A stretch of DNA of 64,000 bases from Eledone cirrhosa (lineage: Eukaryota), in the NCBI GenBank assembly GCA_964016885.1, contig OZ024740.1, forward strand, positions 101,370,001-101,434,000. The letters run 5' to 3'. The position numbers and the translations under genes were made by a program. Positions 2,555 to 64,000 of the stretch are shown here, piece after piece. Each line of letters opens with the position of its first letter. Position 1 is the stretch's first letter. The notes beneath the pieces were generated by a model, which was given only the letters and a program-made list of their open reading frames with translations, had not been told where the DNA came from and did not search any database.

Positions 2555-4003
2555 CATAACCTGATGGATCAGGTTATAAAAGTGGCAGAAAGGATATTAG
2601 CACAACTAATTAGAGAAAGGGTCAAACTAGATGAGATGCAGTTTGGTTTTGTGCCTGGGAAGAGTACAATAGATTCCCTCTTCTTGGTGAGACAATTGCA
2701 AGAGAGGTTCTTAGAGAAAAATAAGCCACTATACTTAGCCTTTGTTGACCTAGAGAAGGCCTTTGATAGGGTACCCCGATCTGTCATCTGGTAGTCCCTA
2801 AGGAAGCTAGGTGTTGAGGAATGGCTTGTGAGGACAGTGCAAACTTTGTACAGAGGTACTCTCAGTAAAGTGAGGGTAGAAATAGAGTTTAGTGAGGAAT
2901 TCCAGATACAAGTAGGAGTACATCAAGGTTCGGTCCTTAGCCCGCTCTTGTTCATTATAGTCCTCCAAGCCATAACAGAGGAGTTTAAGACTGGCTGTCC
3001 ATGGGAACTTCTCTATGCGGACGATCTGGTTCTTATAGCAGAATCAGTAGAGGAGCTAGAGAATAAATTCTGGCTATGGAAACAGCAGTTGGAAGCAAGA
3101 GGACTGAGAGTGAACCGAGCTAAGACAAAAGTGTTGATGAGTAGAAAAGAGGACAAAACTCTGATTTCATCAGGGAAATGGCCATGTTCGATATGCAGAA
3201 AAGGAACTGGCATAAATTCTATAAAGTGCACACAATGCAGATCCTGGGTACACAAGAGATGTAGCGGGATAGCAGGAAAACTAACAGGTAGGGAGAAATA
3301 TGTATGCAGTAGATGTACAGGGAAATTAGACAGTAGAAGTCGCACTGATAGACACATTTTTCAAATGCAGGAGGGCGCTATAGAAGTGGTGGATAGCTTC
3401 CGGTACCTAGGAGATCAGATTAGCATGGGAGGAGGGTGTTCCGAGGCCATAGTATCTAGAATAAGGATGGGTTGGAAGAAGTTTAGGGAGCTGATTCCTC
3501 TGCTGACGAAGAAGGGTTTCTCCCTGCGTACGAAAGGCCGGAGATATGATGCCTGTGTGAGGAGTGCGATACTGCATGGTAGTGAGACATGGGCAGCAAC
3601 TGCAGAGGATATGCAACAGCTGGAGAGAAATGAGGCAGCATGCTCCATTGGATGTGCAGTGTAAATGTGCATGAACGACCCAGCATGAATGCGTTGTGAG
3701 AGAAACTGTCTGAGAGGGATAGAATGTAGTGTACGGGAGAGGAGACTGAGGTGGTAAGGACATGTGATGCGCATGGAGGAAGACCGATGGGTGAAGAAGT
3801 GTCAGGAAATGCCAGTTGAAGGAAGACGTGGTAGAAGTAGACCACGAAAAACATGGGCGGAGGTGGTGAGAACAGACCTCAGATCGTTGAAACTCACGGT
3901 AAGGATGATGAAGGACTGTGACGAGTGGAGAGATGCTTTGCTGAATAAGACCCGTCCCACCCTTGCAAGCAGGGAAAAGCGGATGTAAAATGATGATGAT
4001 GAT
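2555..4003 (+). mobile_element. RTE-clade LINE family B, 5'-truncated RT pseudogene
   Basis: QFGFVPG, FVDLEKAFDRVPR, GVHQGSVLSPLLF, LLYADDLVL motifs with stops/frameshift; terminal hairpin and (GAT)n tail; flanked by (TA)n. Confidence 0.95.
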
Positions 4004-20317: not shown

Positions 20318-22655
20318 TCATCATCATCACCGTTTTACGTCCGTTCTTCCACGCTAGCATGGGTTAGACGGGTTGTCCTGTTGTGGGCAGTGTCTGGTCG
20401 GCTGACCATGCCTTGCTCATACAGGAACTGATCTGGCTTGATTTCTACAGCTGGATGCCCTTCCTAACACCAACCTCATTTACAGTGAGTGCTGGGTGCT
20501 TTTTCGTGGTGCCTACACGTCCACTTTACAGTGTGGGCTGGGTGCTTTTTTGCCGTGGCACCTCCACGAACACCTTGCGGTGGGGGGAGTGGGGGCATAT
20601 TGTTTATATGCTTCAGCATGTACCCATGGGAGGTCGGGTACCCTGTATTACTGCGTGACGCCAGAAGTCACGGTCGTGTGTCATTGTCTTTGAGAGGTGT
20701 AGTTGGGTAAGGTCGGCTTTTATCACCTCATCCCAAGTCATCTTGGGTCTCCCCACTCCGCGGTTTCCATCAACTTCTAGTGCTCTGCACCTTTTTATGC
20801 AGCTGTCATCCTTCATACGCATCACATGTCCATACCAGCGTAACCGCCTCTCCTGCACGCAGCATTTGATTCCTCTTATGCTCAGTCTCTCTCTCAATTC
20901 CTTTATGCTTTGTCGTTCACGTATATTACTGTTACACATCCATCGGAGCATGCAGGCTTCGTTTCTCTCTAATCTACGTAAGTCTTCCACCTTCAGCGCC
21001 CAGGTCTCACTACCATGCAACATCGCTGTTCGGATACACGCATCATACAGTCTGCCTTTCATTCTGAGGGAGAAGCCTTTTGCAGCTAGCAGTGGTAGTA
21101 GTTCCCTAAACTTCTTCCATCCCGTTCTTACCCTAGTTATTGTACTTTCTGAGCACTCACCTCCGTTGCTAATTCGGTCACCTAGGTAGCAGAAGCTGTC
21201 TACTGTTTCTACAGGGCCCTCCCAGAGATTGGTGGTACTTGTTTCCTGTGGCTGTTTGCTTGCTGTTTCAACACAGCTGCTGCATGTGAATCCTACATTC
21301 TTAATTAAGCTTCCTGAGATCCCGCTACATCTCTTGTGTACCCATTGTTTGCATTTGGGGCAGAGAATGGAGTTCCTACCTACACCTTTCCTACATACTG
21401 AGCAAGGCCATTTCCCTGAGGGGATCTGGGTTCTGTTTTCTCGTCTACTTACAAGGACCTTAGTCTTTGTCATGTTGACTTTGAGGCCCTTTCTCTCTAG
21501 TCCCTGCTTCCAGGTTTGGAATTTATTCTCTAGTTCTACCATAGATTCAGCTATGAGTGCGAGGTCATCAGCATACAGGAGTTCCCATGGGCATCCGGTC
21601 TTAAACTCCTCCGTTATTGCCTGCAGGACTATGATGAACAGGAGAGGGCTAAGAACAGAGCCCTGGTGGACCCCAACCTGTACGCTAAATTCCTCGCTAT
21701 ACTCATTGCTAATCCTAACTTTGCTGACTGCTCCCCTATACATGGCTTGTACCGCTTTCACAAGCCATTCATCTACTCCTAGTTTTCTAAGAGCCCACCA
21801 GATTACCGCACATGGAACTCTGTCAAAGGCTTTCTCAAGGTCGACAAATGCCAAGTAGAGTGGCTTACTTTTAGCTAGGTACTTTTCCTGTAATTGCCTC
21901 ACAAGGAAGAGGGCATCAGTGGTGCCTCTCCCTGGTACAAACCCAAATTGCATCTCGTCTATATTCACCCGGTCCCTAATCAGCTGTGCTATAACTCTTT
22001 CTGTTACTTTCATGACCTGGTCCATCAACTTTATACCTCTATAGTTTCCTCTATCTAGTGCATCGCCTTTACCTTTGTAGCAGTTGACAATGATGCTACT
22101 GCACCAATCTTTTGGTATGGCCCCTTCTAGTATTACCTGGTTAACGATACGTGTGGTTATAGTGTGACCTACAGACCCAGATGCCTTCAGCATCTCGGCA
22201 GCTATACCCGATGGACCGGTTGCCTTCCCCATCTTCATATCTCTGATTGCCTTACTTACTACGCTGCCGCTGACTTGTACTGCTGGTCCCTCTATAGGGT
22301 CTACATGGGGTAGGGTCTCTTCTTCCCATGCATTCTCCTCATTTAGTAATCTATCATAATGACTCTTCCATGCATCTTTCTTCTCAGCACTTGTGAGGGC
22401 AAGCTCACCTTTATCATTCCGGATACACTTCTCTCCAATGACATCACAACTATCTCTGACACACTGCCTCGCAATCTTGAATACCTCCTGTTTCTGGTCC
22501 TCACGTTGTAAAACATGCTTGAATTTTCTATCCTCTGCTTCCCTCCTAGCTAAGTATACTTGTCGCCTAGCTTCCCTCTTGGTCTCTATGTAATGTACCC
22601 TGCTCCCACCGTTCTTCCATTCTTTCCATGCCTGTCTCTTGGCCTTGACTGCTGT
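20318..22655 (-). mobile_element. RTE-clade LINE family C, 5'-truncated; RT ORF 20613-22238 (541 aa)
   Basis: Complete RT motifs incl. NYRGIKL, DLEKAFD, GVHQGSVLSP, YADD; (GAT)n tail; inserted in (TA)n. Confidence 0.95.
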
Positions 22656-23859
22656 ATATATATATATATCCTGAATCTTTTCATATTACCCACTCTACTA
22701 CCCCAAGTATCAAATATCTGGTGAGTTAATGGTCTAGCTGGTTTATACCACATCCTATTTTATATATATATGTATATATATATATATCCTTATCGATCCT
22801 TCTTTGGATTTTAGTCTTCACATTTACTCTTAATATATATATATATATATATAGTGTGTGTGTCCACGTTTGTGTGGGTATGTTTGTCTGTGTTTGTGTC
22901 TCATAACTTACCATTTCAACTTAAAGAGGTCAATAACATACCAACCAGACTTGAAAAGTAAGTATTGGGGTGGTACTCCAGCATGACTGCAGTGTTATAA
23001 TTAAAATCAGTAAAAGAATAGACACATACATACATGCATATATATATATATATATATGCATGTATGTATGTGTCTATACACACATACACACACACACACA
23101 CACTGGACATGCTTAGATATATTATTAAAATGCTCAAATTTGCATTGATATTGAACCTGTACTAAAAAAAAACGACTGAAAATGTAAAACAATTATTGAA
23201 AATAATTACAGAGAAAGTATAAGGGTTAAAAAAATATAACTTCTTAATCTAAAATGATCTAATAGGATCTGTGATAAGAGAAATAGTGTTTTAACCCTTG
23301 TGTCATTGCAAAATACTTAACCAATCAATATTATTCACTATCCTACACTCTGCTAATATTTTAAATCGGATCAACAAAGCAAAAAGCAAATTCTATAATA
23401 GTAAACACCATAAAAAGGCGATAAGAATGTTGTTTTTCTTGGTGTGGAAGTCAATAAGATGAAAGTTGTATTATGAGTTAAAATGTCACAAGATCAAAGA
23501 TGGCTGGCGACTTAGAAACAAACAGGAGGCAGAATGATTGGAAAAAAAAATTATCAAGTAGCTTAATAGGAACATTGTAGTTACTTTATCTGCTGCTACG
23601 TTTTGTATGTGTATATTTTGCTTTCTTTCATAGTCTTGAAAGTTTTTGATATATAGTTTAAGGATTAAGGCCCACCATCTTTTATGTAAAGTTTTCAAAG
23701 GGTTATATAGGAAACTTATCTGTGTAAAGTTTATTTTGTGTCATATTTTAAAACCTCAAACTCTACTGTGAAACTTGATAGTAGAGTAATGTTTACTTTC
23801 CAGCTCTTGTTTTGTGGTTACTGCTAGTGTCATCTTTTTTAATAGTTTTGTACTAATAC

Positions 23860-53769: not shown

Positions 53770-55381
53770 TCATCATCATCGTCATCATCATTATCATCAC
53801 CGTTTTACGTCCGTTCTTCCACGCTAGCATGGGTTAGACGGGTTGTCCTGTTGTGGGCAGTGTCTGGTCGGCTGACCATGCCTTGCGCATACAGGAACTG
53901 ATTTGGCTTGATTTCTACAGCTGGATGCCCTTCCTAACACCAACCTCATTTACAATGATTTCTGGGTGCTTTTTCGTGGCGCCTACACGTCCACTTTACA
54001 GTGTGGGCTGGGTGCTTTTTACCGTGGCACCTCCACGACCACCTTGCGGTGGGCGGTGTGGGGGCATATTGTCTATATGCTTCAGCTTGTACACATGGGA
54101 GGTCGGGTACTCTGTATTACTGCATGACGCCAGAGGTCACGGTCGTGTGTCATTGCCTTTAAGAGGTGTAATTGGGTAAGGTCGGCTTTTATCACCTCAT
54201 CCCAGGTCATCTTGGGTCTCACCACTCCGCGGTTTCCATCGACTTCTAGTGCTCTGTACCTTTTTATGCAGCTGTCATCCTTCACGCGCATCACATGTCC
54301 ATACCAGCGCAACCGCCTCTCCTGCACACAGCATTTGATTCCTCTTATGCTTTGTCGTTCACGTATATTACTGTTACACATCCATCGTAGCATGCAGGCT
54401 TCGTTTCTCTCTAATCTACGTAAGTCTTCCACCTTCAGCGCCCAGGTCTCACTACCATGCAACATCGTTGTTCGGATACACGCATCATACAGTCTGCCTT
54501 TCATTCCGAGGGAGAAGCCTTTTACAGCTAGCAGTGATAGTAGTTCCCTGAACTTCTTCCATCCCGTTCTTACCCTAGTTATTGTACTTTCTGAACACCC
54601 ACCTCCGCTGCTAATTCAGTCACCTAGGTAGCAGAAGCTGTCTACTGTTTCTACAGAGCCCTCCCAGAGATTGGTGGTACTTGTTTCCTGTGGCTGTTTG
54701 CTTGCTGTTTCAACACAGCTGCTGCATGTGAATCCTACATTCTTAATTAAGCTTCCTGAGATCCCGCTACATCTCTTGTGTACCCATTGTTTGCATTTGG
54801 GGCAGAGAATGGAGTTCCTACCTACACCTTTCCTACATACTGAGCAAGGCCATTTCCCTGAGGGGATCTGGGTTCTGTTTTCTCGTCTACTTACAAGGAC
54901 CTTAGTCTTTGTCATGTTGACTTTGAGGCCCTTTCTCTCTAGTCCCTGCTTCCAGGTTTGGAATTTATTCTCTAGTTCTACCATAGATTCAGCTATGAGT
55001 GCGAGGTCATCAGCATACAGGAGTTCCCTTGGGCATCCGATCTTAAACTCCTCCGTTATTGCCTGCAGGACTATGAAGAACGGGAGAGGGCTAAGAACAG
55101 AGCCCTGGTGGACCCCAACCTGTACGCTAAATTCCTCGCTATATTCATTGCTAATCCTAACTTTGCTGACTGCTCCCCTATACATGGCTTGTACCGCTTT
55201 CACAAGCCATTCATCTACTCCTAGTTTTCTAAGAGCCCACCAGATTACAGCACGTGGAACTCTGTCAAAGGCTTTCTCAAGGTCGACAAATGCCAAGTAG
55301 AGTGGCTTACTTTTAGCTAGGTACTTTTCCTGTAATTGCCTAACAAGGAAGAAGGCATCAGTGGTGCCTCTTCCTGGTACA
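53770..55381 (-). mobile_element. RTE family C, 5'-truncated, disrupted
   Basis: Highly similar to 20318-21940; in-frame stop and 24-bp deletion; (GAT)n tail. Confidence 0.95.
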
Positions 55382-55397
55382 TATATATATATATAAT

Positions 55398-55545
55398 GGA
55401 GCCACATGGCTTAGTGGTTAGACCATTGGCCTTGCAATCGAAAGGTTGTGAGTTCAATTCTCAGACCGGGTGATGTGTTGTTTCCTTGAGCAAGACACTT
55501 TATTTCACATTGCTCCAGTTTATTCAGCTGTAGAAATGAGATGAT
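55398..55545 (+). mobile_element. tRNA-derived SINE 5' part
   Basis: A box TGGCTTAGTGG, B box GAGTTCAATTC, then body TCCTTGAGCAAGACACTTTATTTCAC. Confidence 0.75.
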
Positions 55546-56048: not shown

Positions 56049-56207
56049 GGTATATATATGTATGTATATATATATATATGTAGATATATGTATTTATGTA
56101 TATATATGTATGTATAAACAAGATATTTTTGCGAGCAATGAATCTTGATGTAGATTTAACCCCCAAAACTCTTTCCGAACTATGTAAGGAACACTTGTGA
56201 CTATTTA

Positions 56208-56247
56208 TGCCCTTGAGAGGCCCAACTGGGCGAAACGTACGTAGGTG
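56208..56247 (+). ncRNA. Hammerhead-like motif with deviant 5' core
   Basis: TGCC-CTTGAGA-G-GCCC-AACT-GGGC-GAAA-CGTACG-TA-GGTG, followed by AATAAA. Confidence 0.5.
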
Positions 56248-56463
56248 ATATTTTAAATAAACATGTTTTAACGGTCTATTCTCCGATTTTTTACTTTCCC
56301 ACGTGCTTACGCTCTGCTAACTCTCTAGCCCACTAAATATTAACACTTCGAATATTTAATACTGCCGGCACTAGTATCGAGCACCTTTGGCATACGCTAC
56401 TTGGCAAATAACTATATGTATCACCTATCCCTCCTTTTTCTCTCTTTCTCGATACGTAAATAC

Positions 56464-56548
<85 letters not shown>

Positions 56549-56746
56549 ATATATATATGTAATATATATATATTTATTAAAATAACAGCTTAAAGTTTAA
56601 GCAAAGAATCGCTGCTTTCACCCTTAACGGGATCTTCTGTATGTATATATATATGTATATATATGTATGTATATATATATGTATGTATATATATATATGT
56701 GTATATATATATATGTATGCATATATATATATATGTATATATATAT

Positions 56747-58532
56747 GAATATAGACATAGAATATTCGAAAATATTCTGTATGTTTATAATAAACATTTT
56801 GAAGACCTAATCGCTATAGAATAGAATACGTCACGTATTACAATTAGATTCTCGATAAAAGCAAGGGAAGTAATCTACGCGTTTCATTCTCGTTAGAAAT
56901 CATCAGGACTACATATCCAGTGCTTTTATCGAGAATGACACAGCTAGAGACTTATAGAATACTTAGCTGTGTACAGGAACTGGTTTGAAAGAGCGGTTGC
57001 CGGTCCGGCAGAAATTAGAAATTGGAATAAATGCTCTGAAATAGCGATATATATGTGAATATAGACATAGAATATTCGAAAATATTCTGTATGTTTATAA
57101 TAAACATTTTGAAGACCTAATCGCTATAGAATAGAATACGTCACGTATTACAATTAGATTCTCGATAAAAGCAAGGGAAGTAATCTACGCGTTTCATTCT
57201 CGTTAGAAATCATCAGGACTACATATCCAGTGCTTTTATCGAGAATGACACAGCTAGAGACTTATAGAATACTTAGCTGTGTACAGGAACTGGTTTGAAA
57301 GAGCGGTTGCCGGTCCGGCAGAAATTAGAAATTGGAATAAATGCTCTGAAATAGCGATATATATGTGAATATAGACATAGAATATTCGAAAATATTCTGT
57401 ATGTTTATAATAAACATTTTGAAGACCTAATCGCTATAGAATAGAATACGTCACGTATTACAATTAGATTCTCGATAAAAGCAAGGGAAGTAATCTACGC
57501 GTTTCATTCTCGTTAGAAATCATCAGGACTACATATCCAGTGCTTTTATCGAGAATGACACAGCTAGAGACTTATAGAATACTTAGCTGTGTACAGGAAC
57601 TGGTTTGAAAGAGCGGTTGCCGGTCCGGCAGAAATTAGAAATTGGAATAAATGCTCTGAAATAGCGATATATATGTGAATATAGACATAGAATATTCGAA
57701 AATATTCTGTATGTTTATAATAAACATTTTGAAGACCTAATCGCTATAGAATAGAATACGTCACGTATTACAATTAGATTCTCGATAAAAGCAAGGGAAG
57801 TAATCTACGCGTTTCATTCTCGTTAGAAATCATCAGGACTACATATCCAGTGCTTTTATCGAGAATGACACAGCTAGAGACTTATAGAATACTTAGCTGT
57901 GTACAGGAACTGGTTTGAAAGAGCGGTTGCCGGTCCGGCAGAAATTAGAAATTGGAATAAATGCTCTGAAATAGCGATATATATGTGAATATAGACATAG
58001 AATATTCGAAAATATTCTGTATGTTTATAATAAACATTTTGAAGACCTAATCGCTATAGAATAGAATACGTCACGTATTACAATTAGATTCTCGATAAAA
58101 GCAAGGGAAGTAATCTACGCGTTTCATTCTCGTTAGAAATCATCAGGACTACATATCCAGTGCTTTTATCGAGAATGACACAGCTAGAGACTTATAGAAT
58201 ACTTAGCTGTGTACAGGAACTGGTTTGAAAGAGCGGTTGCCGGTCCGGCAGAAATTAGAAATTGGAATAAATGCTCTGAAATAGCGATATATATGTGAAT
58301 ATAGACATAGAATATTCGAAAATATTCTGTATGTTTATAATAAACATTTTGAAGACCTAATCGCTATAGAATAGAATACGTCACGTATTACAATTAGATT
58401 CTCGATAAAAGCAAGGGAAGTAATCTACGCGTTTCATTCTCGTTAGAAATCATCAGGACTACATATCCAGTGCTTTTATCGAGAATGACACAGCTAGAGA
58501 CTTATAGAATACTTAGCTGTGTACAGGAACTG
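56747..58532 (-). repeat. 310-bp tandem array (~5.8 units), candidate non-LTR retrozyme; HHRs at 56870-56912 and every +310 up to 58420-58462
   Basis: ATAGACATAG recurs at 56751, 57061, 57371, 57681, 57991, 58301; no differences seen between units. Confidence 0.95.
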
Positions 58533-59482
58533 AGCATTTATTCCAATTTCTAATTTCTGCCGGACCGGCAACCGCTCTTTCAAACCAGTTCCTGTACACA
58601 GCTAAGTATTCTATAAGTCTCTAGCTGTGTCATTCTCGATAAAAGCACTGGATATGTAGTCCTGATGATTTCTAACGAGAATGAAACGCGTAGATTACTT
58701 CCCTTGCTTTTATCGAGAATCTAATTGTAATACGTGACGTATTCTATTCTATAGCGATTAGGTCTTCAAAATGTTTATTATAAACATACAGAATATTTTC
58801 GAATATTCTATGTCTATATTCACATATATATCGCTATTTCAGAGCATTTATTCCAATTTCTAATTTCTGCCGGACCGGCAACCGCTCTTTCAAACCAGTT
58901 CCTGTACACAGCTAAGTATTCTATAAGTCTCTAGCTGTGTCATTCTCGATAAAAGCACTGGATATGTAGTCCTGATGATTTCTAACGAGAATGAAACGCG
59001 TAGATTACTTCCCTTGCTTTTATCGAGAATCTAATTGTAATACGTGACGTATTCTATTCTATAGCGATTAGGTCTTCAAAATGTTTATTATAAACATACA
59101 GAATATTTTCGAATATTCTATGTCTATATTCACATATATATCGCTATTTCAGAGCATTTATTCCAATTTCTAATTTCTGCCGGACCGGCAACCGCTCTTT
59201 CAAACCAGTTCCTGTACACAGCTAAGTATTCTATAAGTCTCTAGCTGTGTCATTCTCGATAAAAGCACTGGATATGTAGTCCTGATGATTTCTAACGAGA
59301 ATGAAACGCGTAGATTACTTCCCTTGCTTTTATCGAGAATCTAATTGTAATACGTGACGTATTCTATTCTATAGCGATTAGGTCTTCAAAATGTTTATTA
59401 TAAACATACAGAATATTTTCGAATATTCTATGTCTATATTCACATATATATCGCTATTTCAGAGCATTTATTCCAATTTCTA
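58532..59482 (+). repeat. Same 310-bp unit in inverted orientation (~3.1 units); HHRs at 58656-58698, 58966-59008, 59276-59318
   Basis: AGAGCATTTA at 58841, 59151, 59461; reverse complement of the left block. Confidence 0.95.
58656..58698 (+). ncRNA. Minimal type I hammerhead ribozyme (representative of 9 copies)
   Basis: GTAGTC-CTGATGA-T-TTCT-AACG-AGAA-T-GAAA-CGCG-TA-GATTAC; stem I extended by a perfect 16-bp helix ATTCTCGATAAAAGCA/TGCTTTTATCGAGAAT. Confidence 0.88.
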
Positions 59483-59635
59483 TATATATATATATATATA
59501 TGTATGTATCTATATATATGTGTATCTATATATATATGTATATATATATATATGTATGTATGTATATATATATGTATATATATATGTATATATATATGTA
59601 TATATATATATATATATATATACATATATATATGT

Positions 59636-62600
59636 ATCATCATCATCATCATCATCAACGTTTAACGTCCGTGTTCCACGCTTGCATGGGTTTGGACGGG
59701 GGTTTTCCCACTTGAGGCAAGAGTGATTGTCTTGCTCGCATAGGACTGTCTGGCAGGTTTTCTACAGTTGGATGCCCTTCCTAACACCAACCACATTTAC
59801 AGTGTGGGTCTCGGAGGTTTTTACCGTGTTGCCTACACGGCCACATTACAGCGTGGACTGTGTGTTTTTTTGTCGTGACACCTACACGATCTCATTTGTT
59901 TCGGCCTGGATGGTGTGGCACCAACATAACTTTACATAGAAGGGGGCGGTGTGGATGGGGTTGGGTGGTGGGACGGGGGTGTATTTTGTTAGAGATGCCT
60001 ACTGACTGTAGGTTTCGCTTTGTATTTAGGTAAGGCGGGTCTTCTCTATTACTGAGTACCGCCAAAGGTCTCGGTCCTGTGACATTGTCTTGGTGAGGTG
60101 AAAGTGTGTGAGGTCGGTGTTTATCAGCTCGTCCCAGGTTTTTCTGGGTCTGCCTATTCCGTGGCTACCGTCTATCTTTATTGCCCTGCACTTTGTTATA
60201 CAGCTATCGTCCTTCATGCGCATCACGTGACCATACCAACGTAGTCTTCTCTCTAGTAAACAACATCTGATCCCTCTTATTTCTAATTTTTTCCTTAGTT
60301 CATTTATGCTTTGTCGTTCACGTATATTACTATTACACATCCAGCGGAGCATGCAAGCTTCGTTTCTCTCTAGTCTGCGTATATCCTCTGCACACAATGC
60401 CCAGGTCTCACTGCCATGCAACATTGCTGTTCGTATGCAGGCATCGTGCAGCCTGCCTTTCATTTTTAGGGAGAACCCTTTAGCGGCTAATAGTGGTATA
60501 AGCTCTCTGAACTTTTTCCACCCAGTTCTGACTCTAGCTACTGTACTTTCAGAGCACCCTCCCCCACTGCTGATTTTGTCACCCAGGTAACGGAAGCTGT
60601 CCACTATTTCTATAGAACCCTCTGCGCAGTTGAAAGAGCTAGTATTTTGTGGGCACTTGCTGCTACTTATATCCCCAGAACACCGGCTACATGTAAAATC
60701 TATGTTCTTAGTTAGCTTACCTGTGATCCCACTACATCTTTTATGCACCCAAACTTTGCATTTGGGACACAAAATGGAATGTCTACCTACGCCTTTCCTA
60801 CACTCTGCGCATGGCCACTTCCCGGAGGGGACCGCCGCCTTATTTTCTTTCTTACAAACTAGAACTTTAGTCTTAGCCAGGTTAATTTTAAGGCCTTTTG
60901 ATTCTAGGCCGTGCTTCCATGTTTGGAATTTCTTCTCTAGCTCGGCCATTGATTCAGCTATGAGCGTTAGATCATCTGCGTATAGGAGTTCCCATGGGCA
61001 GCCGGTCTTGAACTCCACTGTTATAGCCTGGAGGGCAATAATAAATAGTAGGGGGCTAAGGATAGAGCCCTGATGAACACCAACTTTTACACTAAACTCT
61101 TCGCTATATTCGTTGTTAATTCTAACCTTGCTGACTGTTTCTTTATACATGGCTTGTATAGCTCTCACAAGCCATTCATCAACGCCTAGTTTTCTAAGAG
61201 CCCACCAGATAATGGAACGGGGGACTCTGTCGAAGGCCTTCTCCAAGTCGACGAAAGCTAAGTATAGGGGTTTACTTTTAGCTAGGTACTTCTCCTGTAG
61301 TTGTCGTACAATGAAAAGAGCGTCTGTGGTACTTTTTCCTGACACAAACCCGAACTGCATTTCATCTAGATCAATTCGCTCTCTGATTAGTTGCGCTATT
61401 ACTTTTTCCGTGACCTTCATGACCTGGTCGATTAATGTAATGCCTCTATAGTTACTCATATCTAGGGCATCTCCTTTACCCTTATAACAGTTAACGATAA
61501 TGCTGCTACGCCAGTCCTTCGGAACAACCCCTTTCTGTATGACTTCGTTGACTATCCGGGTGACCATGGTGTGTTCCACCGTTCCAGATGCCTTCAGTAT
61601 CTCGGCAACTATTTCCGAAGGCCCAGCCGCCTTGCCTGTCTTCATATCTTTGATTGTCTTACTTATTATACTACTCTCGACTAACACTGCTGGTCCCTCT
61701 ATTGGGTCGATGTGGGGGAGACTGTCTTTCTCCCATTTATTCTCCTCATTTAGTAGCCTTTCATAGTGACACTTCCAAGCTACCTTCTTATCGGCGTCGG
61801 TGATGGCAAGTATGCCGTCATCGTTAAGTACACACTTTTCCCCGACAATATCACTGTTTTCCTTGACACATTGCCTAGCAATCCTGAACACCTCACGTTT
61901 TTGGTCCTCACGTTGTAGAACATGCTTGAACTTTCTTTCCTCTGCTTCCCTTCTTGCGAAGTACACTTGTCTCCTAGCTTCCCTCCTGGCCACTTGATAG
62001 TCTTCTCTGCTTCCCCCATCCCGCCATACTTTCCAAGCCTGCTTTTTGGCCTTAATTGACTCCTCCACCTTACTGTTCCACCACCATCTAACTCTCCTCC
62101 TGCCTACAGGCCTGCTCCAGCCGCAGACTTCGTCTGCCGCCGTCAGCAGGTTTGCTTTCAGGAATTCCCACTGTTCCTCTACCTTGTACGTCTCTAATTG
62201 CTCTTCCTCACTGTCGAAAGCATCAAGTAATATGCTTTGGAATTTATTTTTGGCTGTGGGGTCCTTTAGCTTCCATATTTTTCTCCTGAGGATAGTCCTC
62301 TTCTGTTGTCTAGTACGTCTCGTCCTGACTATTAGGTCGCTAATTATCAGTCTATGTTGGGAAGTGCATTCTTCATGGGGGAGGGATTTAGTGTTTACGA
62401 CAGTCACTTTGTCACGTCTTCTGGTAAGGATATAATCTACCTGGCTAGTATGTTCCCCTGATCTGTAGGTGATCAAGTGATTGTCTCGTTTTTTGAAGTT
62501 AGTGTTGCAGATAGTTAGGTTATTTGCGTCGCAGAATTCCAGGATTCTGGAGCCTTCCTCATTTCTAGTACCAAACCCATAGCCCCCATGGATTTCGTCG

Positions 62601-62893
62601 TAGCCGTCACAATGTTGTCCAACGTGACCGTTTAGGTCGCCTGCAATAATTATATAGTCACTGTCGGTTATTTGGGAGGTAGTGAGCATCAGTGTCTCAT
62701 AGAATCTGTCTTTTATAGTGCTGGGCAGTCCGGATTGGGGTGCGTACGCGGATATTACTGTCACCGTAGTTCTATTGAGGACAAGTCTTATTTTAATTAT
62801 TCTGTCGTTCACTCTATTTACGTCTATTATCTTATCTGCCCACTTTTCTGCTACCATGATTCCTACTCCACCCAGCCCATTGTCGTTTCCCAT
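59636..62893 (-). mobile_element. RTE family A, young copy truncated within the endonuclease
   Basis: (GAT)n tail, 3' UTR, uninterrupted ORF; possible TSD ATGTAT. Confidence 0.97.
60026..62893 (-). CDS. RTE polyprotein: APE endonuclease (N-terminus missing) + reverse transcriptase with PHD-like finger, 955 aa
   Basis: AYAPQ, GDLNGHVG, QVDYIL, SQHRL; DLEKAFD, GVHQGSILSP, YADD, FRYLG, RLRWYGHVMR. Confidence 0.92.
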   Translation of the reverse strand: MGNDNGLGGVGIMVAEKWADKIIDVNRVNDRIIKIRLVLNRTTVTVISAYAPQSGLPSTIKDRFYETLMLTTSQITDSDYIIIAGDLNGHVGQHCDGYDEIHGGYGFGTRNEEGSRILEFCDANNLTICNTNFKKRDNHLITYRSGEHTSQVDYILTRRRDKVTVVNTKSLPHEECTSQHRLIISDLIVRTRRTRQQKRTILRRKIWKLKDPTAKNKFQSILLDAFDSEEEQLETYKVEEQWEFLKANLLTAADEVCGWSRPVGRRRVRWWWNSKVEESIKAKKQAWKVWRDGGSREDYQVARREARRQVYFARREAEERKFKHVLQREDQKREVFRIARQCVKENSDIVGEKCVLNDDGILAITDADKKVAWKCHYERLLNEENKWEKDSLPHIDPIEGPAVLVESSIISKTIKDMKTGKAAGPSEIVAEILKASGTVEHTMVTRIVNEVIQKGVVPKDWRSSIIVNCYKGKGDALDMSNYRGITLIDQVMKVTEKVIAQLIRERIDLDEMQFGFVSGKSTTDALFIVRQLQEKYLAKSKPLYLAFVDLEKAFDRVPRSIIWWALRKLGVDEWLVRAIQAMYKETVSKVRINNEYSEEFSVKVGVHQGSILSPLLFIIALQAITVEFKTGCPWELLYADDLTLIAESMAELEKKFQTWKHGLESKGLKINLAKTKVLVCKKENKAAVPSGKWPCAECRKGVGRHSILCPKCKVWVHKRCSGITGKLTKNIDFTCSRCSGDISSSKCPQNTSSFNCAEGSIEIVDSFRYLGDKISSGGGCSESTVARVRTGWKKFRELIPLLAAKGFSLKMKGRLHDACIRTAMLHGSETWALCAEDIRRLERNEACMLRWMCNSNIRERQSINELRKKLEIRGIRCCLLERRLRWYGHVMRMKDDSCITKCRAIKIDGSHGIGRPRKTWDELINTDLTHFHLTKTMSQDRDLWRYSVIEKTRLT

Positions 62894-63007
62894 GTATGTA
62901 TGTATATATTTATTTAGGTTTGTTGATTCACCACTGGATAGAACTGGGCATTCCGTATGGTCAACCTTGATGTAAAATTAGGGAGAGCACTAAGTACGGA
63001 GTTAATT

Positions 63008-63232
63008 ATTATAAAATAACAGGAGGCTGGACTGGTGTAATTCGATAAAAGGTTTTTTATACTATAATCATTTCAATGACCGGGTTCGGTATGAATTCGG
63101 TGATATCATCATGTATTCGAAATATAACAAAGGAATATAATAGACAAAATACATGGGGCTGACAATCAGAGACATGAGGGCGACCGAACATTTAGCAGCT
63201 TCTACCCCGGTTGGCCACCCTCAAGTCACTTG
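63008..63232 (-). repeat. Dispersed repeat related to 5455-5677
   Basis: Inverted similarity with moderate divergence. Confidence 0.6.
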
Positions 63233-63234
63233 CT

Positions 63235-64000
63235 TTGAGAGCCTTGGGAGAGGGCTCCAACACTGATGGCATCTACCTTGATTTCAGCAAGGCCTTTGAT
63301 AGGGTTGATCATAAGTTTCTACTGAAAAAACTATCCAATATTGGTCTCTCTGGAAAGTTACTACAGTGGATCAAATGTTTCCTGACAGACAGAACCCAAC
63401 ATGTTTTAGACGAAGGAGTAAAATCAAGCCCTGCCAATGTCAGCAGTGGCGTCCCACAAGGCACTGTGTTGGGCCCACTTCTTTTCATCATCTACATTAA
63501 TGAAATTACTGACATCATCAAGCACAGCAACGTAAAAATCTTCGCAGATGATTCCAAGCTCCAAAGGGCCATTAATGAGGTGGGTGACGGGACTTGGCTT
63601 CAGTCAGATTTACTGGCTGTTATCCAATTGGCAGAAAAGAATAATATGCTGTTGAATGAGGATAAGTTTGAATTAATCCACTTTGGAAAAAAGGATGCTC
63701 TGAAACTACCATACTCTCTTCCTTCAGGTGAAACTCTAGTGGCATCCAATAACATCAGAGACCTGGGAGTAATTGTGGACAACAATATAAGCTGGGCCAC
63801 TCATATAAACAGCAAAGTTGATATTGCCCGCAGAATGTGTTCCTGGATTCTCAGAACTTTCCAGTCGACAGATATCGACACTGTTATCCTTCTCTTCTCC
63901 ACTTTTGCTCGACCCCACCTTGAACACTGTTGTCCACTGTGGTCTCCCCACACGAAACAAAGTATCATGAAAGTTGAAGCACCCGAAAAGTCAATTACAA
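63235..64000 (+). mobile_element. CR1-group LINE RT fragment, open frame running off the window
   Basis: IYLDFSKAFDRVDH, SGVPQGTVLGPLLFIIYIN, FADDSKL, RDLGVIVD, RPHLEHC.PLWSP. Confidence 0.92.

What the first reader, a model, noticed from the sequence alone, without database searches (positions are those of the whole stretch)
58622..59002. The 310-nt monomer is pre-folded to close its own ends
Seen on the ribozyme strand: a perfect 16-bp helix ATTCTCGATAAAAGCA/TGCTTTTATCGAGAAT extends stem I beyond an internal loop. There are further helices: AATACG/CGTATT, ATAGCGAT/ATCGCTAT, ATGTTTA/TAAACAT, AGAATATT-TTCG-AATATTCT, AGAGC/GCTCT, TGCCGG/CCGGCA and ACACAGCTA/TAGCTGTGT. Inference: after cleavage the 5'-OH and 2',3'-cyclic phosphate ends would be held together for ligation (self or RtcB), giving a branched viroid-like circle, and the stem I internal loop could dock with loop II (AACG).
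Basis: partly seen in the sequence, partly recalled or inferred. Interest (0 to 1): 0.75.

Follow-up and report, generated by a model that had tools for sequence, protein, structure and literature searches.

The report
Conserved self-closing fold of a retrozyme
This 310-base repeat, present thousands of times in an animal genome, carries a hammerhead self-cutting RNA motif and a long stem that is conserved across four related families and is predicted to staple the cut RNA's start near its end, likely so that a host enzyme can close it into a circle, as is already known for animal retrozymes.

Summary
The helices are real: all 8 are perfect complements, the circular fold beats 200 of 200 shuffles (z -4.5), and the long stem-I extension keeps pairing through double-sided changes at 8 of 13 pairs across four subfamilies in this genome. 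The unit is a young type I hammerhead non-LTR retrozyme (4,226 exact cores), a known class for which circles and RtcB ligation are published. Corrections: the helix fixes the 5' end 31 nt from the 3' end, and the ends are no closer than in shuffles; stem III is one pair plus a palindrome in every subfamily, so cutting likely needs a double hammerhead (which by geometry pairs a monomer's own ends before cutting) and self-ligation is unlikely; loop II AACG is a minority allele. Whether that register wins depends on construct length in the folding model. New here: locus-wide variants spare the helices, and all five A>G sites lie opposite U in helices, which looks like RNA editing of a paired template. 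No RNA data could be tested. The scan found this family and its two-armed Penelope-type insertions before on other DNA.

The parts
58693..59002 (+). 310-nt monomer, cleavage site to cleavage site
   Evidence: period 310, units identical
58532..59482 (+). plus arm of the array, 3.07 units, monomer phase 150 to 170
56746..58532 (-). minus arm of the array, 5.76 units, phase 204 to about 130-139; joins the plus arm with a 1-nt overlap at 58532
58693..58698 (+). stem I proximal helix, strand 3' of the cut (5' end of the monomer)
   Evidence: pairs with 58966-58971 (own unit) or 58656-58661 (unit before); p 0.97-0.99 in the monomer; 4 of 6 pairs double-changed
58699..58699 (+). unpaired U1.7, predicted partner of the last A of loop II
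   Evidence: conserved in all four subfamilies; contact known from PMC11875169 passages
58700..58702 (+). 3-bp helix beyond the 3x1 internal loop, pairs with 58960-58962
58705..58720 (+). 16-bp extension, 5' strand in the monomer
58942..58957 (+). 16-bp extension, 3' strand in the monomer
58966..58971 (+). stem I proximal helix, strand before the core; A at 58968 (phase 276) is the recurrent A>G site
58972..59002 (+). hammerhead core, stem II with U.U at its base, GAAA, palindromic stem III (58996-59001), cut predicted after 59002
   Evidence: sequence, motif scan; no Rfam match
58729..58743 (+). hairpin AATACG/CGTATT; a hairpin sits here in B and C in another register
58751..58837 (+). arm closed by ATAGCGAT/ATCGCTAT, holding the ATGTTTA and AGAATATT hairpins
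   Evidence: double-sided changes in the two inner hairpins (1 of 7 and 2 of 8 pairs)
58841..58888 (+). arm closed by AGAGC/GCTCT with the TGCCG/CGGCA hairpin; nearly invariant, no double-sided change
58906..58940 (+). hairpin ACACAGCTA/TAGCTGTGT; B and C have a hairpin of other sequence here
59452..59482 (+). about 30-nt 'tail' between the two fixed outer ends (phases 128-139 and 163-172)
59481..59637 (.). TA-rich microsatellite, right flank (left flank 56638-56746)

Best explanation
The repeat is a young, high-copy non-coding retrozyme whose unit carries a type I hammerhead motif and a roughly 25-pair stem conserved by compensatory change; multimeric transcripts are predicted to cut themselves as paired (double) hammerheads, the stem would then hold each monomer closed on itself, a host RtcB ligase likely seals it into a circle, and a Penelope-type reverse transcriptase likely copies that RNA into (TA)n sites as two opposed arms. 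Steps shown here: the sequence anatomy, covariation, copy number, two-armed insertions with fixed outer ends, locus-wide variants that spare helices. Steps inferred: transcription, cleavage, dimer mode (from a palindromic stem III in all four subfamilies and the literature), strand-swapped register (geometry of a double hammerhead: each core pairs its upstream stem I strand with the strand after the other core's cut, so the unit between two cuts is paired end to end), RtcB ligation (by analogy), A-to-I editing of the helix (from five A>G sites), circular template.
For: Fold beats shuffles. Outer helix over subfamilies A-D, 32 sequences: 90.5% of cells paired against 34-53% when slid, 8 of 13 pairs double-changed; whole structure over A-C, 12 sequences: 21 of 77 pairs double-changed against 2-4 slid, of them 10 of 19 in the extension, 4 of 6 in stem I, 2 of 4 in stem II. 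Core positions 3 and 8 covary, C-G in A and B, U-A in C (18 of 18 parsed) and D (5 of 6), a known active variant (PMC3088659). Stem III is self-complementary with different letters and lengths: 6 nt in A, 9 in B (23 of 26), 12 in C (12 of 18), 10 or 14 in D (2 of 6 perfect); such ribozymes work as dimers (PMC4209133; PMC7229834). In 408-nt two-hammerhead stretches the unconstrained optimum is the swapped double hammerhead (74 of 84 natural A stretches, 71 of 71 with an intact upstream strand; 6 of 6 doubled C units). In 57 A loci, 22 variants run through most or all units of a locus: 1 of 22 breaks a listed pair against 26 of 59 single-unit changes (Fisher p 0.0005); 5 of 7 in helices are A>G opposite U against 0 of 15 outside (p 0.0008); A276>G, in a UAG, recurs in 7 loci on 3 haplotype backgrounds. 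RtcB and adenosine deaminase genes are in the genome. 52 of 57 loci are two-armed; 49 of those 52 show both outer ends, at phases 128-139 and 163-172, matching the PLE inverted copy, 30-40 bp tail and (TA)n target (PMC8557442; PMC11167929).
Against: The register result depends on the construct: swapped is favoured by 0.9-4.6 kcal/mol in 5 of 17 windows and disfavoured by 5.9-6.9 in 12 of 17 longer ones, where near-palindromic hairpins pair between units; all 10 snapshots of the natural plus arm fold in the neighbour-paired register with no stem III. Subfamily B gives swapped in only 5 of 15 doubled units and inter-unit stem III in 2 of 15, and its one natural dimer tested folds locally (a damaged copy). 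Ends are not unusually close. Covariation rests on four related subfamilies, a handful of events; the count of double-changed pairs is reached by 68 of 500 shuffles. The editing signal is 5 sites (about p 0.04 if judged against 48 of 91 A being paired, my arithmetic), could be selection for G.U plus descent, and older subfamilies show no whole-unit A>G excess (B 19 vs 21 T>C, C 32 vs 23, D 40 vs 41). No Rfam match. Eight of nine Xenopus retrozyme dimers did not cleave in vitro (preprint 10.64898/2026.07.22.740005). No autonomous PLE sharing the tail was sought or found.
Confidence: 0.72

Rival explanations
1. The long helix is selected as a local extension of stem I (single hammerhead, paired between neighbouring units) that drives cleavage; the products stay bound to their neighbours and closing of a monomer is a later refolding or a by-product.
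For: The neighbour-paired register forms first and wins in all 10 snapshots and in 12 of 17 windows; the module is worth -30.5 kcal/mol, so release is slow; U1.7 and loop II are kept; covariation cannot tell the two registers apart.
Against: Stem III of one pair is too weak for a lone hammerhead in the literature read, and its palindrome is kept through changes of sequence and length.
Confidence: 0.2
2. The monomer ligates itself by the reverse hammerhead reaction.
For: Full type I hammerheads with loop contacts ligate 2000-fold faster than minimal ones (PMC6155905 passage); the contact nucleotides are present.
Against: Axolotl and mussel monomers self-ligate 3% and 1% against over 80% and 30% with RtcB; stem II is formed at p 0.14-0.28 and stem III is one pair; in a double hammerhead the reverse reaction would join two different monomers (inference).
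Confidence: 0.08
3. The helix serves RNA stability or recognition by the mobilising protein, the template is an uncut linear multimer, and locus-wide variants are inherited from homogeneous source arrays rather than from editing of one circle.
For: For an anole PLE, ribozyme cleavage was not needed for insertion in vitro; several variants mark subfamilies shared by many loci; L125 and L129 are mosaic at 276.
Against: Private variants run through every unit of both arms (for example 92A>G 4 of 4, 259A>G 7 of 7, 210C>A 17 of 17), 276A>G recurs on three backgrounds, and the core covaries at 3-8, so catalysis was under selection.
Confidence: 0.15
4. An ordinary satellite whose hairpins are chance or DNA-level palindromes.
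For: Both strands fold equally well; several hairpins are near-palindromes.
Against: Double-sided changes, G.U pairs on one strand, intact core, dispersed two-armed insertions.
Confidence: 0.02

Closest known systems
Metazoan non-LTR retrozymes (coral, mussel, axolotl; Cervera and de la Pena 2020, PMC7229834, parts 2-4 of 6 read; Li, Clavereau and Pollet 2026 preprint, parts 1-3 of 5 read)
   Same: Tandem units of 150-450 bp, low GC (34.5% here), one type I hammerhead per unit, self-paired predicted circle, U.U at the base of stem II as in axolotl HHR_Amex2, one-pair palindromic stem III as in HHR_Amex1, proposed RtcB closing and PLE mobilisation.
   Different: No sequence link tested; here the arrays are two opposed arms with fixed ends, and the closing stem is shown by covariation and by the placement of variants, which the parts read do not report. 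Expression and circles are shown there, not here.
Double hammerheads of newt satellite 2 and avocado sunblotch viroid (Forster et al. 1988, not held; seen through passages of PMC4209133, PMC6155905, PMC6466107)
   Same: Weak palindromic stem III, cleavage expected in multimers and avoided in the monomeric circle.
   Different: Stem I extension of about 25 pairs; the viroid has no DNA form and ribozymes on both strands.
Penelope-like elements, EN+ clades (PMC8557442 passages; PMC11167929 parts 1-2 of 4)
   Same: Inverted 5'-truncated second copy, 30-40 bp tail from two start sites, (TA)n target, hammerhead in the repeat.
   Different: No ORF; many complete rounds of a 310-nt unit in both arms; the partner element was not identified here.

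Membership tests
Type I hammerhead ribozyme | Core CUGANGA, GAAA, UH with stem I open to the flanks | tested here: met
Type I hammerhead ribozyme | Stems I, II, III with covariation | tested here: met
   stem I 4 of 6 and stem II 2 of 4 pairs double-changed; 10.1-11.1 is U.U, a tolerated variant and A-U in 8 of 57 loci; stem III one pair plus palindrome
Type I hammerhead ribozyme | Loop I to loop II contact (U1.7 with last A of loop II) | tested here: inconclusive
   nucleotides conserved; no structure or activity test
Type I hammerhead ribozyme | Match to an Rfam hammerhead model | tested here: not met
   none at gathering score or at E up to 10
Type I hammerhead ribozyme | Self-cleavage | not testable with these tools
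   needs in vitro transcription
Metazoan non-LTR retrozyme | Tandem 150-450 bp units, each with a type I hammerhead, many genomic copies | tested here: met
Metazoan non-LTR retrozyme | GC under 50%, non-coding, no LTR framing | tested here: met
   107 of 310 G+C; arrays abut (TA)n directly; no frame of 130 aa or more listed in the window array. PBS and PPT were not searched for
Metazoan non-LTR retrozyme | Stable self-paired circular fold | tested here: met
   prediction; covariation
Metazoan non-LTR retrozyme | Expressed as linear and circular monomers | not testable with these tools
   no raw RNA reads were available
Metazoan non-LTR retrozyme | Target site duplication longer than 4 bp when present | tested here: inconclusive
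   flanks are (TA)n
Non-autonomous Penelope-like element | Inverted truncated copy, 30-40 bp tail, microsatellite target | tested here: met
Non-autonomous Penelope-like element | Sequence shared with the pLTR of an autonomous PLE | not tested
   only a Pfam scan of 30 of 157 nearby open frames, no GIY-YIG hit
Viroid (Avsunviroidae) | No DNA counterpart | tested here: not met
   4,226 exact genomic cores
Viroid (Avsunviroidae) | Hammerheads on both polarities | tested here: not met
   two-strand scan found only the one motif in the arrays
Viroid (Avsunviroidae) | RNA-to-RNA replication | not testable with these tools
   no RNA data

The most novel reading that the evidence does not exclude
The genome holds a record of single RNA circles: ADAR edits adenosines in the closing helix of one 310-nt circle, and two Penelope-type reverse transcriptases primed from both strands of a (TA)n break run round that same molecule, so each edit appears in every unit of both arms. 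The A>G scars are then in vivo structure probing of the retrotransposition intermediate, and the double hammerhead is what delivers monomers already paired end to end.
Probability: 0.4. Interest if true: 0.72.

Novelty: new member of a known kind. Interest (0 to 1): 0.42.

Why it matters
What this family adds is a test bed: four subfamilies that give a covariation-backed structure, a very young subfamily with identical units, and variants that suggest the helix is formed and edited in the RNA that gets copied. It makes two open points directly testable: whether cleavage goes through a strand-swapped double hammerhead that pre-closes the monomer, and whether the reverse-transcribed template is a circle.

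Tried and rejected
Rfam: nothing at gathering score, only chance hits at E 3-6. DNA search of the own genome with the monomer returned nothing, probably because common words are skipped; a pattern search replaced it. Sequencing runs: no RNA holder listed; 6 runs of unknown kind, all contigs; 4 of 6 laid: two gave one 340-nt contig (310 plus 30) without differences, which a tandem array and a circle would both give, so no inference on expression or circles. RNAalifold on subfamily B copies missed the long helix, so its paired/unpaired counts for B are unreliable and were not used for the claim. MAFFT misaligned the D core in A2 and the ATAGCGAT strand in A1, so only the outer helix was counted and helix 8 (36% paired) is an alignment fault; by eye ATAGCG/CGCTAT is present in B. 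My first folding result for the double hammerhead did not survive longer windows and is not taken as proof. End-to-end distance as a sign of design: rejected. Locus L113 looked like an array fused to an open frame; it is an assembly gap. Pfam scan of 30 of 157 long frames found only LINE-type domains. The newt and Schistosoma primary papers are not held. A look-up of earlier scan notes by sequence and by words gave nothing.

Full report
Observation. The stretch lies in a 310-bp tandem array made of a minus arm (56746-58532, 5.76 units) and a plus arm (58532-59482, 3.07 units), all units identical, set in TA microsatellite. On the plus strand each unit ends in a type I hammerhead motif; the monomer from cut to cut is 58693-59002. 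All 8 helices of the finding are exact complements at the expected places. The linear fold is -72.5 kcal/mol, z -3.9, 1 of 100 shuffles as good; the circular fold -67.8, z -4.5, 0 of 200; no shuffle of 2,000 held a perfect stem over 12 bp; the interior alone gives z -2.6. TGCCGG/CCGGCA can make only 5 pairs in one unit, and ATAGCGAT, ATGTTTA and stem II are weakly predicted (p 0.57, 0.42, 0.14-0.28). Rfam gave no hammerhead match.

Family. The 31-nt core occurs 4,226 times exactly in the 3.0-Gb genome, 0 for the reversed control. Three older subfamilies turned up beside fetched loci: B (66% to the window unit, 311 nt), C (79% to B) and D (about 365 nt). I used 30, 20 and 15 best copies of these; each search scored only 40 of 1,398-2,636 candidates.

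On 32 sequences (2 A, 10 of 30 B, 10 of 20 C, 10 of 15 D) the outer 13 pairs of the extension are 90.5% paired against 34-53% when slid, with 8 pairs changed on both sides; cells paired, cells double-changed and the covariation score exceed all 500 shuffles, but the number of such pairs is reached by 68 of 500 and the number of pair types by 458 of 500. On 12 full units of A, B, C, 21 of 77 pairs are double-changed against 2-4 when slid: 10 of 19 in the extension, 4 of 6 in stem I, 2 of 4 in stem II, 2 of 8 in AGAATATT, 1 of 7 in ATGTTTA, 2 of 9 in ACACAGCTA, none in AGAGC, TGCCG, AATACG and ATAGCGAT (family-level pairs). B and C carry hairpins of other sequence or register where A has AATACG and ACACAGCTA. 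These are a few events on a four-branch tree, not dozens, but they run through every part of the closing stem. The tertiary core pair 3-8 is C-G in A and B and U-A in C and D, a variant reported as natural and active (PMC3088659, passages), so catalysis was under selection.

Do the ends meet? The stem pins nucleotide 1 to 279; the last 31 nt (core, stem II, stem III) are a tether. In the predicted fold the ends are 22 steps apart, and 132 of 200 shuffles are as close or closer. Only a folded hammerhead would bring the cyclic phosphate to the 5'-OH, and its stem III is one A-U pair closed by CGCG. Stem III is self-complementary in all four subfamilies with different letters and lengths, the mark of ribozymes that cleave as dimers and stay quiet as monomeric circles (PMC4209133 passages; PMC7229834; PMC6466107 passages). 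It follows from the geometry of a double hammerhead (inference) that stem I is strand-swapped: the unit between two cuts pairs its own 5' strand with its own 3' strand before it is cut, and is held to the rest by only 6 pairs (-7.5 kcal/mol, against -30.5 for the stem I module). Folding does not settle it: the swapped form is the optimum for 408-nt two-hammerhead stretches (74 of 84 natural A stretches, the 10 misses all cut short by the inversion junction, 71 of 71 intact; doubled C units 6 of 6, doubled B units 5 of 15), but longer windows favour pairing between neighbours by 5.9-6.9 kcal/mol in 12 of 17 windows and in all 10 snapshots of the plus arm. For closing, published monomers gave 3% and 1% by themselves and over 80% and 30% with RtcB (PMC7229834); an RtcB gene is in this genome. 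For a plant viroid, changes round the ligation site mattered little unless they hit the ribozyme (PMC5895719, abstract), a caution that the long helix may not be what the ligase needs.

Loop contact. U1.7 is unpaired and kept in 49 of 49 parsed A loci, 26 of 26 B, 18 of 18 C and 6 of 6 D copies (parsed from 56, 30, 20 and 15); loop II ends in A in most A, B and C copies. That fits the known U1.7 to loop II A pair (PMC11875169 passages; PMC6155905 passages). AACG is not the conserved part: 37 of 57 loci have A for its G and 11 have U for its C.

Evidence that the helix forms in the copied RNA. In 57 A loci (the window, 10 picked by the core pattern, 46 by the tail-end pattern, all from the first 115 Mb of contig C1) I classed substitutions, leaving out indels and the C>T artefacts at 129 and 131 where the unit meets TA. 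22 variants fill at least 65% of a locus's units; only 1 breaks a listed pair (a marginal pair closing a 3-nt loop) against 26 of 59 single-unit changes. Five of the 7 in helices are A>G opposite U (phases 20, 92, 218, 259, 276), none of the 15 outside is. 276A>G, in a UAG, occurs in 7 loci on three haplotypes, in all units in 5, in 12 of 13 in one, and in one locus as A in the four outer units of one arm and G in the other nine. Adenosine deaminase genes are present; the preference of ADAR for UAG in duplexes is recalled. In C, A>G is 27 of 1,120 cells at paired A against 5 of 998 at unpaired A, but cells share descent; whole-unit spectra of B, C, D show no clear A>G excess. Editing of a paired, probably circular template is the simplest reading; selection for G.U plus descent is not excluded.

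Mobilisation. 52 of 57 loci have two opposed arms, 49 of them with both outer ends in view at phases 128-139 and 163-172; among the 11 loci not chosen by their end, 10 do. Inner junctions fall at scattered phases, mostly with 0-5 nt overlap (40 of 52). This matches the inverted copy, 30-40 bp tail and (TA)n target of Penelope-like elements (PMC8557442 passages) and the two internal start sites and two-strand priming of an anole PLE (PMC11167929). I reached this before opening the scan's notes, which report the same architecture several times. The partner PLE was not identified.

Comparison and novelty. It works like, and meets the testable features of, a metazoan non-LTR retrozyme; expression and cleavage are untested. 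It is not a viroid. Searches for retrozyme with ADAR and editing (1 unrelated paper), for this animal group with hammerhead and Penelope (1 paper listed) and searches showed no description of this family or of editing scars in retrozyme helices in the held library; supplements of PMC7229834 and the 2026 preprint were not seen and may list it. Verdict: real, selected structure of a new member of a known kind; interest 0.42.

Noticed in passing
window 60029-62977 (-); also 20616-22685 (-), 54619-55410 (-), 2795-3661 (+), 63196-63999 (+), 32563-33732 (+): LINE-type open frames; the first is 983 aa with endonuclease, RT and PHD-finger matches, 550 bp from the array. Probably an unrelated neighbour.
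   Followed up: partly
window 56205-56250 (+): A damaged hammerhead-like motif with a palindromic stem III between TA runs, 500 bp left of the array; it did not pass my motif scan.
   Followed up: no
window 26589, 30134, 44100 (+); L037 1583 and 1913; L040 1556: Other hammerhead-like motifs from the two-strand scan, so further ribozyme repeat families are nearby.
   Followed up: no
L125 368-4014: Phase 276 reads A in the four outer units of the tailed arm, then G in the two inner units and all seven of the other arm: an edit during copying, a template switch or gene conversion.
   Followed up: partly
L071-L105: Subfamilies C and D use the U3-A8 core variant; C has two stem I alleles with G.U at alternate positions, as if from two different A>G changes.
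   Followed up: partly
L091-L105: 11 of 15 D copies carry an ATGCAAAT octamer in the unit, recalled as an snRNA-type promoter element; not seen in the window unit. How A is transcribed is unknown.
   Followed up: no
L106 1118-5851: The two-armed structure appears twice with the same junction: a tandem duplication or an assembly fault.
   Followed up: no
L113 883-2210: GC-rich frames after an assembly gap with motifs recalled as PLE reverse transcriptase; Pfam gave no match.
   Followed up: no
runs X1-X6: Runs under four organism labels hold 90-100% of the unit's words; X1 also has a short piece like subfamily C with further changes in a hairpin. Label, diet, contamination or transfer were not told apart.
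   Followed up: no
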